From Octopus vulgaris (lineage: Eukaryota): a stretch of DNA of 64,000 nt. Position numbers: made by a program. The stretch is from assembly GCA_951406725.2 (NCBI GenBank), contig OX597833.1, forward strand, positions 47,058,001 through 47,122,000. The letters run 5' to 3'. Below, piece by piece: positions 11,537-14,500 of the stretch; position 1 is the stretch's first letter; each line of letters starts with the position of its first letter.

Positions 11537-14500
11537 GAAATATTAAAATTACTAAGTCTCTCTAAAAGAGATTACGGCAGCGTTACTGGAAATTAATTGT
11601 TATCGCCATATTAATATGGCAGTCTTATAGATATAAGACTAAAGCTGTTGCTGATTAGCTCCATGAGGCCATCACCTTAAGCTAGCTATTTGACACACAA
11701 ACTGTGTCCATTATAACCTTCGAACAAGGGGCGGCTGACCTCCCTTATATATATATATGTACGTATGCCACTTCATGTCTGCCATCGTAATATTTGTGTA
11801 TTGGTTTAAGCATGCAGTCATTACAAAAACTTGGCAAGAGTGGGAACAATCATTCTAACCTCACGTCTACAACACTCTGCGAATTGGCGCTCAAAATTAA
11901 CTCTATACATAACCCCTGGAGGAAAATGTTCTTGGGCATCTTTCATGGTTGAGAACCATTGGTCAAGGTATAGTTGTTGGCCCAATGACAACCCATTTTA
12001 ATCTCTGGCAAGAGGTAGTCATTTCTGTTAACAAATGAGTGTAAATACACCGAATCAGCTCATGGCATCACCTAACCAAACTGAGGGATGCATGCAATAT
12101 GGAATGGTTATCTCCTCTTCAGCCACAGAAACTGGACAGGGTTTAAATATACCTCAAGCATATTTGAACTGGTAATAAGTTTCTAAATCATATACTATCC
12201 TCCTCCCACCACTATATACAGTAATGGCTCAGTGGTTAGAGCGTCAGGCTTACAATCATCAGGTAGTGAGTTCAATTCCCAGACCAAGCTGTGTTGTGCT
12301 CTTGAGCTGGCCTCTCTGTCAAGTATTGGGGGCCCCATCAAGAGCTTACTTTCAACTGGCATAGCTATTATAGTCGTTGAAGCGCACAAACTACCACACC
12401 AACAACAAGGACCAGACTTATGGATCAGTAGTTGAACTGTGCCATTAATCCTTTAGCATACAAACCAGCCATATCCAGCCTAAATATTTAACCTTTTTTG
12501 TGTTAAAACTGTCCAGATCTGGCCTCTCACTTCAACCCTACAATGTCATGAAGAAAAAATACTGTATTTACTCAGCCAACTGAAAACCTTTTGGATATTT
12601 TTATATACAGAACATTAGTTTAACAAAGGACAGGATGGAAAGAATAAGCAAAGTTCTAGTTTTCCCAAGTGGAACAGTGGTAAGTATAGTGATAGTAACT
12701 TGTTTCCAAGTTAGCCTACATCTTTATCCTACTATGTTCAAAGAAAATATAAACACAGAAAAGATAGGATAATCACAGTCAGATTGCTTTTGATCACAAG
12801 TCTAACAACATCCTCTTTATTTTTCTAAAGCAATGACCTGGCAGAAATGTTAACAAGCAATCACATCATTGATATCTCTAAACTACAAGACAATGCTTGA
12901 TTAATTTAAAACAATATAAATAAACAAACAATACATTTGGCAGGTGTGGAGGCGCAATGGCTCAGTGGTTAGGGCAGCAGACTCGCGGTCGTAGGATCAG
13001 GGTTTCGATTCCCAGACTGGGTGTTCTGAGTGTTTATTGAGCGAAAACACCTAAGGCTCCATGAGGCTCTGACAGGGGATGGTAGCGATCCCTGCTGTAC
13101 TATTTGGCCACAACTTTCTCTCACTCTTTCTTCTGTTGGCCTGCTCGCTTAGCCAGCTGGGTGACGTCATTTGAAGGTTAAAACAATGCGAAACACATTG
13201 TGACCAGTGATGTGTAGCAACATCTGATAGCCTGGTCGGTCACAGTGATCATGGTGACATTTGGCAGAATAGCCTGAATACGAAAGGGTTAATGTATTAA
13301 GTATTTTGATTATAGAAATAAAGAAGATATTCTTTTCTAATCTAGATTAGAAATTTTGGGGGATGGGGCCAGTCAATTAGATCGACCCTAGTACATAACT
13401 GGTACTTAATTTATCAACCCTGAAAAGATGAAAGGCAAAGTTGACCCCAGCGGAATTTGAACTCAGAACGTAAGGACAGACAAAATACCACTACGCATTT
13501 TGCCTTGAGTGTTAACATTTCTGCCAGGTCATTGCTTTAGAAAAATAAAGAGGATGTTGTTAGACTTGTGATCAAAAGCAATCTGACTGTGATTATCCTA
13601 TCTTTTCTGTGTTTATATTTTCTTTGAACATAGTTGGATAAAGACGTAGGTTAACTTGGAAACGAGTTACTATCACTATACTTACCACTGTTCCACTTGG
13701 GAAAACTAGAACTTTGCTTATTCTTTCCATCCTGTCCTTTGTTAAACTAATGTTCTGTATATAAAAATATCCAAAAGGTTTTCAGTTGGCTGAGTAAATA
13801 CAGTATTTTTTCTTCATTCGAAATATTACGAAAACAACATGAATGAGAGATATAAATAAATAATTTACAGCAAAACAGGCAGGCAGTGGGTAAGTCTTAC
13901 AACAATACTCCTACTAAATACAAGTTTGTTTTTTTTTCTCAGTAAAATACTTGTAGTTGTTGTTGTTGTTGTTTCCGATGATAACTCCCAGTTCATGCTC
14001 TTTGATCAAAGATGTGCTAGCTGTGACCATCTTTTTGCCAGATATTTTCATGTTTGTTCTTGGGCAATCAATGAAACCTATGATTTCAGCTTTGTGGTTA
14101 TTCAGTGGTGGTGGTGGTGGTGGTGGTGGTTGTGGTGGGGTACAGCTGTATGGGGAAGGTGAAGTACCAAAGAATAGTGACTGCTTCTGTCTGTAGTTTA
14201 CCTTCTGTGTGCTCTTGTAAGCGAGGAAATGACAGAAAATAGTTGCATTTCATTGTCATGAACATATGTGACACTCCAGATGGAATCAGCAACCCAGGTA
14301 AAGGTAAGGTAAAGTTTCCTTCTTGAATAATACTGACCCATAAGGGCCAGTTTCCCAGTTTCCATGGAATAGAAATTCCCCACCTGGATGGGATGCCAGT
14401 CCCTCACAGGGTTAATCATTTTTGCCAGCTGAGTGGACTGGAGCAACATGAAATGAAGTAGCTTACTCAGTCCAGGGATTGAAACTACAACCTTATGATC

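What the first reader, a model, noticed from the sequence alone, without database searches (positions are those of the whole stretch)
12548..13817. An exon copied in inverted orientation into its own downstream intron: a built-in ~308-bp dsRNA over the whole exon
Seen: 13510-13817 (3' splice region, exon D, donor, and the end of a SINE) is duplicated as a reverse complement at 12548-12855 with about 4 mismatches, none noticed in the exon part. The copy sits inside a piggyBac-like MITE, replacing a few bases of it, so it is a later templated insertion rather than a TIR. On the minus-strand pre-mRNA the copy follows the exon after a ~650-nt loop. Knowledge: long intramolecular duplexes are ADAR substrates and can mask splice sites, and coleoid cephalopods recode mRNAs extensively by A-to-I editing. 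Inference: a recently born editing-complementary sequence that could drive hyper-editing or skipping of this in-frame 69-nt exon, i.e. a snapshot of how recoding sites can originate.
Basis: partly seen in the sequence, partly recalled or inferred. Interest (0 to 1): 0.78.

Follow-up and report, generated by a model that had tools for sequence, protein, structure and literature searches.

The report
Young inverted 308-bp copy, exon unproven
A 308-base stretch of octopus DNA was recently copied backwards into a small transposon about 650 bases away, so any RNA made across it could fold into a long double strand, but nothing available here shows that the copied piece contains a real exon.

Summary
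12548-12855 is the reverse complement of 13510-13817: 308 nt, 4 differences, blastn E 9e-155. The copy at 12548-12855 is the derived one. It carries only the first ~34 nt of a SINE that is complete at the source, and it interrupts a TTAA-flanked MITE, replacing about 8-10 nt. There is no target-site duplication and no poly-A tail, and each junction shares only 1-2 nt. This fits a templated insertion made during break repair or a replication template switch. Both CpGs of the source have decayed in the copy, which argues against an assembly artefact. Either strand's RNA could form a duplex of about 305 bp.

"Exon D" is not supported. Its peptide matched no protein of 110-2000 aa, although a true DPAGT1 exon from this window found Octopus proteins at 100% identity. 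In a crude splice model its acceptor is weak, and 41 other exon-like candidates in the window score at least as well. I found no flanking exons. Transcription, editing and skipping cannot be tested with these tools. My verdict is a young repair scar that can form a hairpin; a role as an editing-complementary sequence is speculative.

The parts
13510..13817 (-). Source arm of the inverted duplication. In minus-strand order it holds unique DNA, the 69-nt exon-like segment, more unique DNA, and the first ~34 nt of SINE1.
   Evidence: It is the source because 12 of the 18 in-window SINE matches listed run uninterrupted across the 13510 breakpoint, and because it keeps both CpGs.
12548..12855 (+). 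Derived inverted copy: 308 nt, 4 differences from the source, inserted into a MITE.
   Evidence: Four MITE relatives align up to 12547-12549 and again from about 12856. Both source CpGs read TG and CA here.
12856..13509 (.). 654-nt spacer, the loop of the potential hairpin. It contains the rest of the MITE, SINE2, 78 nt of unassigned DNA, and the body of SINE1.
13686..13754 (-). Its status as an exon is unproven.
   Evidence: One search gives coordinates and translation. One search gives acceptor score 2.9 and donor score 10.0. Searches found no protein, Pfam or PDB match.
12611..12679 (+). Mirror image of the exon-like segment in the copy. It has the same splice-like signals, but on the plus strand.
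12449..13288 (+). piggyBac-like MITE, flanked by TTAA at 12445-12448 and 13289-13292. It is interrupted twice, by the 308-nt copy and by SINE2.
   Evidence: Relatives lie at 39579-39807, 44397-44596, 41914-42056 and 43111-43195.
12944..13256 (+). SINE2, a tRNA-headed SINE with its own 11-nt target-site duplication ACATTTGGCAG at 12933-12943 and 13257-13267. It is an event independent of the inverted copy.
13371..13543 (-). SINE1, a member of a family with many copies in the window. Its 5' head (13510-13543) lies within the duplicated unit.
13635..13664 (-). 30-nt patch that holds all 4 differences between the arms (partner patch 12701-12730). Two of them are the only CpGs of the unit.
   Evidence: The probability of a span of 29 nt or less by chance is 0.0027.

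Best explanation
This is a young, local, inverted templated insertion, in effect a DNA-repair scar. I infer the following sequence of events. A break occurred inside a piggyBac-like MITE at about 12548. A resected 3' end folded back, or switched template, onto DNA 0.65-1.27 kb to its right. It copied 308 nt (13510 to 13817), which included the head of an already resident SINE. It was then rejoined to the other break end through 1-2 nt of shared sequence, with the loss of about 8-10 nt of the MITE. The product is a 1270-bp unit with 308-bp arms that are 98.7% complementary, around a 654-nt spacer. It most likely has no function. If any transcript of either strand runs across both arms, it would fold into a duplex of about 305 bp. 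From general knowledge of ADAR and Dicer, such a duplex would be promiscuously edited from A to I, or diced. The duplication, its direction, the junction anatomy and the folding potential are shown here. The repair mechanism, and any consequence at the RNA level, are inferred. The copied piece is not shown to contain an exon.
For: Repeat: (308 nt, 4 differences, E 9e-155, only two copies in the window).
Direction of copying: 12 of the 18 in-window SINE matches cross 13510 without a break, whereas the copy holds only the terminal ~34 nt of that SINE. The two CpGs of the source both read TG and CA in the copy.
Insertion into the MITE: an alignment with 4 relatives shows the MITE running up to ...CAATGTCA and resuming at AAGCAATCA, with a TTCTAAAAAT-like stretch missing.
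Junctions: there is no target-site duplication and no A-tail, and only 1-2 nt are shared at each junction.
Independence from SINE2: that element has its own 11-nt duplication.
Folding: the minimum free energy is -684.9 kcal/mol with the whole stem paired. The arm-arm duplex is -521.4 kcal/mol with 305 pairs for minus-strand RNA, and -525.6 kcal/mol with 306 pairs for plus-strand RNA.
Against exon status: one search found none of 56 candidates at E<=10, while the control found Octopus DPAGT1 proteins at 100% identity, E 3e-16. One search gives acceptor score 2.9, equalled or beaten by 820 minus-strand and 853 plus-strand sites, and lists 16 plus-strand and 27 minus-strand exon-like candidates at least as good; those 43 include this segment and its mirror.
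Literature: templated and inverted insertions at breaks are known (PMC11724301, PMC8421209, PMC2943611; I saw only the search listing and the start of each abstract).
Against: Foldback insertions described at breaks are mostly very short, about 5-34 bp according to the start of the abstract of PMC11724301. A 308-nt copy taken from 0.65 kb away would need long resection or a replication-type template switch. Microhomology of 1-2 nt is weak evidence, because the original MITE sequence at this site is only inferred from relatives that are 68-79% identical. All 4 differences fall within 30 nt (P 0.0027), and simple neutral decay does not predict that. The protein search covered only proteins of 110-2000 aa, so an exon of a giant or very small protein, an unannotated isoform, or a non-coding exon would have been missed. 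Pfam also failed to recognise the two true DPAGT1 exon ORFs, so the Pfam negatives carry little weight. My splice scoring uses a generic matrix that I set by hand, not one trained on octopus.
Confidence: 0.7

Rival explanations
1. 13686-13754 is a genuine in-frame exon of a minus-strand gene. The inverted copy lies in its downstream intron and acts as a newborn editing-complementary sequence, driving hyper-editing or skipping of the exon.
For: The segment is open in one frame and is bounded by CAG and a strong GTAAGT donor (score 10.0, among the top 14 on its strand). The duplex covers the whole segment and both splice-like sites. The window is from Octopus, and coleoids edit heavily (PMC5705066, passages read). 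Young nearby inverted repeats are the main ADAR substrates across animals (PMC9989829, passages read).
Against: No protein of 110-2000 aa contains the peptide, although Octopus proteomes are in the collection. The acceptor is weak, and the window holds 41 other candidates at least as good. No partner exons were found. The two ORFs at 28.3-28.6 kb that look spliced hit nothing or only repeat-like modules. The absence of differences in the 69 nt is expected by chance (P 0.36).
Confidence: 0.1
2. A non-coding hairpin RNA locus. The unit is transcribed and diced into endogenous small RNAs, like the hpRNA loci of flies or the proto-miRNAs of plants that arose by inverted duplication of their targets.
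For: There is a long, near-perfect inverted repeat with a short loop. hpRNA loci that produce endo-siRNAs are known in Drosophila (PMC10292708 and PMC10317233; listing and start of abstract only).
Against: There is no evidence of transcription. No small-RNA data can be reached. Rfam found nothing in the locus. No target other than the source itself is known. At least 7 other inverted pairs of 130 nt or more lie within 3 kb of each other in this window, so such structures are ordinary here.
Confidence: 0.08
3. The assembly created the inverted copy, for example through a chimeric or palindromic long read.
For: Near-identical inverted duplications are a known class of assembly error (recalled). 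Reads cannot be inspected here.
Against: The arms are separated by 654 nt of ordinary, distinct repeats. The copy is set cleanly into a MITE with a small deletion. The 4 differences include decay of both CpGs in the copy only, which is a biological mutation pattern.
Confidence: 0.05
4. The copy was made from RNA: a reverse-transcribed fragment of an unspliced transcript was captured at a break.
For: If a minus-strand transcript exists, it would carry the unit. RNA-templated insertions at breaks have been described (recalled, not checked).
Against: There is no A-tail and no target-site duplication. The template lies only 654 nt away, which favours a local DNA template. A chimeric retro-insertion together with SINE2 is excluded, because SINE2 has its own 11-nt duplication and 88 nt of MITE (12856-12943) lie between the copy and SINE2.
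Confidence: 0.05
5. 12548-13817 is one mobile element with 308-bp terminal inverted repeats, a foldback-type transposon.
For: The shape alone: long inverted arms around a spacer.
Against: The interrupted MITE resumes immediately after the left arm, inside the supposed element, and not after the right arm. No duplication flanks the two outer ends. There is no other copy in the window. One arm ends in the middle of a SINE head that continues only at the right arm.
Confidence: 0.02

Closest known systems
Templated or foldback insertions at double-strand breaks (synthesis-dependent microhomology-mediated end joining, polymerase-theta end joining, MMBIR/FoSTeS template switching)
   Same: The insert is an inverted copy of nearby sequence. 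Each junction shares only 1-2 nt. There is a small deletion at the target, no target-site duplication and no A-tail.
   Different: At 308 nt it is far longer than the ~5-34-bp inverted insertions reported in yeast (start of the abstract of PMC11724301). The template lies 0.65-1.27 kb from the break. The enzyme pathway cannot be assigned from sequence.
Intronic editing-complementary sequences (ECS) of ADAR targets, such as those of insect Syt1
   Same: A sequence complementary to an exon-like segment lies within about 1 kb, on what could be the same transcript (the concept is from PMC5705066).
   Different: Known ECS elements are conserved, imperfect, short duplexes at proven exons with observed editing. 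Here the duplex is 308 bp and nearly perfect, which predicts unselective hyper-editing. It is very young, and neither the exon nor the editing is shown.
Inverted pairs of young repeats (for example Alu pairs) as the main source of edited dsRNA
   Same: Two nearby, closely similar sequences in opposite orientation can fold within one transcript (PMC9989829). This window has several such pairs.
   Different: The arms are not two independent insertions of a repeat family. They are one local copy of mostly unique DNA plus a SINE head.
hpRNA loci and proto-miRNAs born by inverted duplication of a target sequence
   Same: Same birth mechanism and same shape: an inverted duplication giving a long hairpin.
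   Different: No transcription, no small RNAs and no target gene are known here.

Membership tests
Templated insertion from break repair or template switching | The insert is identical or nearly identical to a sequence elsewhere, and the donor is left intact | tested here: met
   308 nt, 98.7% identity. The donor is intact and continuous with its SINE.
Templated insertion from break repair or template switching | No target-site duplication and no poly-A tail, with a small loss at the target | tested here: met
   The outer and inner flanks share no duplication. About 8-10 nt of the MITE are missing compared with 4 relatives.
Templated insertion from break repair or template switching | Microhomology at the junctions | tested here: inconclusive
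   Only 1-2 nt can be assigned at each junction (AT on the left, A or CA on the right). The pre-insertion MITE sequence is inferred from diverged relatives.
ADAR editing-complementary sequence at a coding exon | The paired segment is a real, transcribed exon | tested here: inconclusive
   Splice-like signals and an open frame are present. There is no protein match among proteins of 110-2000 aa, despite a working Octopus control. No RNA data can be reached.
ADAR editing-complementary sequence at a coding exon | A complementary sequence able to pair within the same transcript | tested here: met
   Complementarity and fold are shown. Whether one transcript spans both arms cannot be tested.
ADAR editing-complementary sequence at a coding exon | A-to-I changes seen in RNA compared with DNA | not testable with these tools
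   No RNA-seq is available. The supplements of PMC9989829 were not opened, and the window's place in an assembly is unknown.
hpRNA / endo-siRNA hairpin locus | Long inverted repeat with a short loop | tested here: met
   308-nt arms and a 654-nt loop.
hpRNA / endo-siRNA hairpin locus | Small RNAs from both arms, and a homologous target | not testable with these tools
   No small-RNA data. Rfam found no family in the locus.
Foldback or long-TIR transposon | The two arms are the ends of one inserted unit, with the host sequence flanking both outer ends | tested here: not met
   The interrupted MITE continues directly after the left arm, inside the unit. There is no flanking duplication.
piggyBac-like MITE (host of the copy) | TTAA flanks and CCYTTT...AAAGGG termini; multiple copies | tested here: met
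   TTAA at 12445-12448 and 13289-13292; termini TCCTTTAGC / GAAAGGG; 4 relatives in the window. That these features mark piggyBac-type elements is recalled.

The most novel reading that the evidence does not exclude
13686-13754 is a real exon that annotation has missed, or that belongs to a protein outside the 110-2000 aa searched. In that case this octopus carries a very young, probably lineage-specific inverted copy of a whole exon and both its splice sites in the next intron. This would be a dated, mechanistically explained birth of an exon-spanning dsRNA, made by break repair, and its effect on editing and exon inclusion could be measured against alleles or sister species that lack the copy.
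Probability: 0.1. Interest if true: 0.7.

Novelty: new member of a known kind. Interest (0 to 1): 0.3.

Why it matters
Taken as it stands, this is one clear and well-resolved example of how repair of a break can create a long hairpin-capable structure from unique DNA. Its direction, junctions and relative age can all be read from the sequence. It would become important only if the region is transcribed. It could then show how new ADAR or Dicer substrates arise without transposon pairs. If the 69-nt segment is a real exon, it could also show how an editing-complementary sequence is born. A look at existing Octopus RNA-seq and gene models would settle that.

Tried and rejected
1. Protein evidence for 'exon D'. 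The exon alone (23 aa) is below the search tool's minimum length, so I searched the enclosing 62-aa ORF. None of 56 candidates reached E<=10. PDB gave a best E of 1.5. Pfam gave nothing.

2. Looking for the gene's other exons.
- Pfam on 259 ORFs of 40 aa or more from 1-30500, kept after an entropy filter from the window's 774, gave only 2 chance matches below cut-off: PF22812 at 22.5 bits against 34.1, and PF16015 at 16.4 bits against 27. Pfam also missed the two true DPAGT1 exon ORFs, so this test is insensitive.
- Hand-made splice scoring gave 20 plus-strand and 25 minus-strand candidates at strict thresholds, without exon D.
- The same scoring gave 31 rows in minus-strand DNA of 1-31 kb that has no second copy in the window. 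None is recognisable as coding.
- An ORF just upstream of the source arm on the minus strand (13917-14249) has no donor site and no PDB relative.

3. Two ORFs at 28263-28634 on the minus strand, with a splice-like 96-nt intron. One had no hit among 9 candidates. The other had 4 weak hits, E 1.9e-5 to 6.2e-4. Two of these are unrelated repetitive proteins, and two carry the segment as a repeated module. This is probably repeat-derived and is not evidence for a gene.

4. A chimeric SINE2 retro-insertion carrying the copy: rejected, because SINE2 has its own duplication.

5. An ADAR footprint in the differences: only 1 of the 4 is A-to-G in the minus-strand sense. Rejected.

6. Foldback transposon: rejected.

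7. Rfam and ARAGORN over the locus: nothing there.

8. Literature. No paper holds both 'editing complementary sequence' and 'inverted duplication' (0 papers). That is a narrow search and does not show that the idea is new.

Each ORF was searched on its own.

Full report
**What is there**

The window (64,000 nt, 38.0% G+C, no N) holds a near-perfect inverted repeat. The repeat finder reports arms 12548-12860 and 13505-13817, 313 nt, 98% complementary. Base by base, 12548-12855 equals the reverse complement of 13510-13817 over 308 nt, with 4 differences (12701/13664, 12714/13651, 12720/13645, 12730/13635). Similarity then ends. blastn gives 98.7% identity, E 9e-155, and no third copy in the window. 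The spacer is 12856-13509, 654 nt.

**Which arm is the original**

A SINE family with many copies in the window covers 13371-13543. Of the 18 in-window matches to it listed, 12 run straight across position 13510. On the minus strand this SINE starts with a tRNA-like head at about 13543. The left arm contains only the terminal ~34 nt of that head and then switches abruptly to other sequence. So 13510-13817 is the source and 12548-12855 is the copy, made after the SINE had landed. The source also has exactly two CpGs, and both read TG and CA in the copy. This agrees with that direction. It is also a biological mutation pattern, which speaks against an assembly artefact.

**Where the copy landed**

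The copy landed in a MITE. The segment 12449-13288 is flanked by TTAA (12445-12448 and 13289-13292) and has TCCTTTAGC... / ...GAAAGGG ends. Four relatives lie at 39579-39807, 44397-44596, 41914-42056 and 43111-43195.

In an alignment the relatives follow the locus up to ...CAATGTCA. They skip the whole 308-nt copy and resume at AAGCAATCA. A TTCTAAAAAT-like stretch of about 8-10 nt is missing at the locus.

The MITE continues directly after the left arm, so the two arms cannot be the ends of one foldback transposon. Further right, the MITE is interrupted a second time by SINE2 (12944-13256). SINE2 has its own 11-nt target-site duplication ACATTTGGCAG at 12933 and 13257. It is therefore a separate event, and my idea of a chimeric retro-insertion carrying the copy is rejected.

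**How the copy was made (inferred)**

The copy has no target-site duplication and no A-tail. At each junction only 1-2 nt could belong to either partner: AT on the left, A or CA on the right. The target lost a few bases. This is the signature of a templated insertion during break repair or a replication template switch. A resected 3' end folds back onto DNA 0.65-1.27 kb away, copies 308 nt, and is rejoined.

Such events are described in PMC11724301, PMC8421209 and PMC2943611. I saw only the listing and the start of each abstract. The first of these reports mostly ~5-34-bp inverted inserts. This one is unusually long, and the pathway cannot be named from sequence.

**Age**

Raw divergence is 4 of 308 positions. 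Copies of the SINE family are 72-86% identical to this one, so the duplication is much younger than the surrounding repeats. All 4 differences lie within 30 nt (P 0.0027). Two are explained as the only CpGs of the unit. The rest of the clustering is unexplained. If the arms exchange sequence by gene conversion, the divergence underestimates the age.

**Folding**

The 1286-nt minus-strand RNA folds with the complete stem, minimum free energy -684.9 kcal/mol. No shuffle control is given at this length. The two arms alone give -521.4 kcal/mol with 305 pairs for minus-strand RNA and -525.6 kcal/mol with 306 pairs for plus-strand RNA. A transcript of either strand would therefore form the duplex.

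The four differing positions give C·A, A·C, G·U and A·A on minus-strand RNA. Such structures are not rare here. Among the 25 longest inverted pairs within 3 kb of each other (205 pairs of 80 nt or more in all, many of them microsatellite-redundant), this pair is the second longest and the most complementary.

**Is 'exon D' an exon?**

The segment 13686-13754 on the minus strand is open in one frame (NISLTKDRMERISKVLVFPSGTV). It lies between ...TATACAG and GTAAGTAT.

Points in its favour:
- The donor is strong, with score 10.0. Only 14 sites on the strand score as high.

Points against it:
- The acceptor scores 2.9 in my generic, hand-set model. That is equalled or beaten by 820 minus-strand and 853 plus-strand sites.
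- The window holds 16 plus-strand and 27 minus-strand open, exon-like candidates whose two scores are at least as good. Those 43 include this segment and its mirror copy.
- The enclosing 62-aa ORF found no protein at E<=10 among 56 candidates of 110-2000 aa.

That negative result has some weight because of a control. A true exon ORF from the same window (63232-63432, plus strand) found two Octopus DPAGT1 proteins at 100% identity, E 3e-16. Octopus proteomes are therefore in the collection. Proteins outside 110-2000 aa, unannotated isoforms and non-coding exons would still be missed. PDB and Pfam gave nothing.

I found no partner exons:
- 259 ORFs from 1-30500 gave only 2 Pfam matches, both below cut-off. 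Pfam also missed both true DPAGT1 exon ORFs, so this test is weak.
- Splice-based scans yielded nothing recognisable.
- Two ORFs at 28263-28634 on the minus strand that look spliced hit nothing or only repeat-like modules.

I searched each ORF on its own and did not join putative exons into a spliced model. That none of the 4 differences falls in the 69 nt is expected by chance (P 0.36).

**Verdict**

The central biological claim is that an exon was copied into its own intron as a newborn editing-complementary sequence. That claim rests on an exon for which I found no support, and on transcription that cannot be checked here.

Two general points come from the literature. Young, nearby inverted repeats are the main ADAR substrates across animals (PMC9989829, passages read). 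Cephalopod recoding sites sit in conserved structured regions (PMC5705066, passages read). A 308-bp perfect duplex would give unselective hyper-editing or dicing, not site-selective recoding.

I rate this a new member of a known kind, a repair-born inverted duplication. Interest is modest unless RNA data show that it is expressed.

**What stayed unchecked**

- Any cephalopod genome, reads or RNA-seq, and therefore transcription, editing and presence of the copy in other individuals or species.
- Whether 13544-13817 is repeated elsewhere in the genome.
- Proteins longer than 2000 aa.
- The supplements of the cited papers.
- The closed metagenome and viral collections.

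Noticed in passing
window 58177-58335 (+) and 63297-63417 (+): First two coding exons of DPAGT1 (UDP-GlcNAc:dolichyl-phosphate GlcNAc-1-phosphate transferase). The exon-2 ORF is 100% identical to two NCBI Octopus proteins (P0005 of 361 aa; P0006 of 411 aa, O. sinensis), E 3e-16, and the exon-1 ORF reads as their N-terminus. 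This identifies the window as Octopus. The studied locus lies about 44 kb upstream of this gene's start.
   Followed up: partly
window 11158-11746: Two further near-perfect hairpin-type inverted repeats lie 0.8-1.4 kb left of the locus: 11292-11505 / 11533-11746 (214 nt, 95%, 27-nt spacer) and 11158-11296 / 11308-11446 (139 nt, 97%, 11-nt spacer). Rfam gives miRNA-family matches below threshold on both strands at 11374-11664. They are probably palindromic MITE-like elements.
   Followed up: partly
window 51909-52269 and 55171-55531: The longest inverted pair in the window: 361 nt, 96%, 2.9-kb spacer. It carries mirror-image ORFs (51922-52374 on the minus strand, 151 aa; 55249-55518 on the plus strand, 90 aa) with no Pfam family. 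These are probably two copies of one element in opposite orientation.
   Followed up: partly
window 38785-39135 (-): ORF with the Mos1/mariner transposase HTH domain (PF17906, E 3.3e-22). This is a mariner-type transposase remnant. A mariner-like C-terminal fragment at 7577-7834 (+), which I recognised by eye, had no Pfam hit.
   Followed up: partly
window 28263-28634 (-): Two same-frame ORFs separated by a splice-like 96-nt interval (GTGAGA ... pyrimidine tract + TAG). The first resembles a module that occurs twice in an unnamed 234-aa protein and once in an unnamed 93-aa protein (E 1.9e-5 and 2.9e-4). The second has no hit. It could be a repeat-derived pseudo-exon or a small unannotated gene; this is undecided.
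   Followed up: partly
window 31953-32474 and 21409-22005: Head-to-tail runs of the SINE1 family: three units at about 180-nt spacing at 31953-32474, and a similar run at 21409-22005. So this SINE also occurs as short tandem arrays.
   Followed up: no
window 12701-12730 / 13635-13664: All four differences between the arms fall within 30 nt (P 0.0027). Two are the only CpGs of the unit. The clustering of the other two is unexplained. It could be a patch of error-prone synthesis, a conversion tract, or chance.
   Followed up: partly
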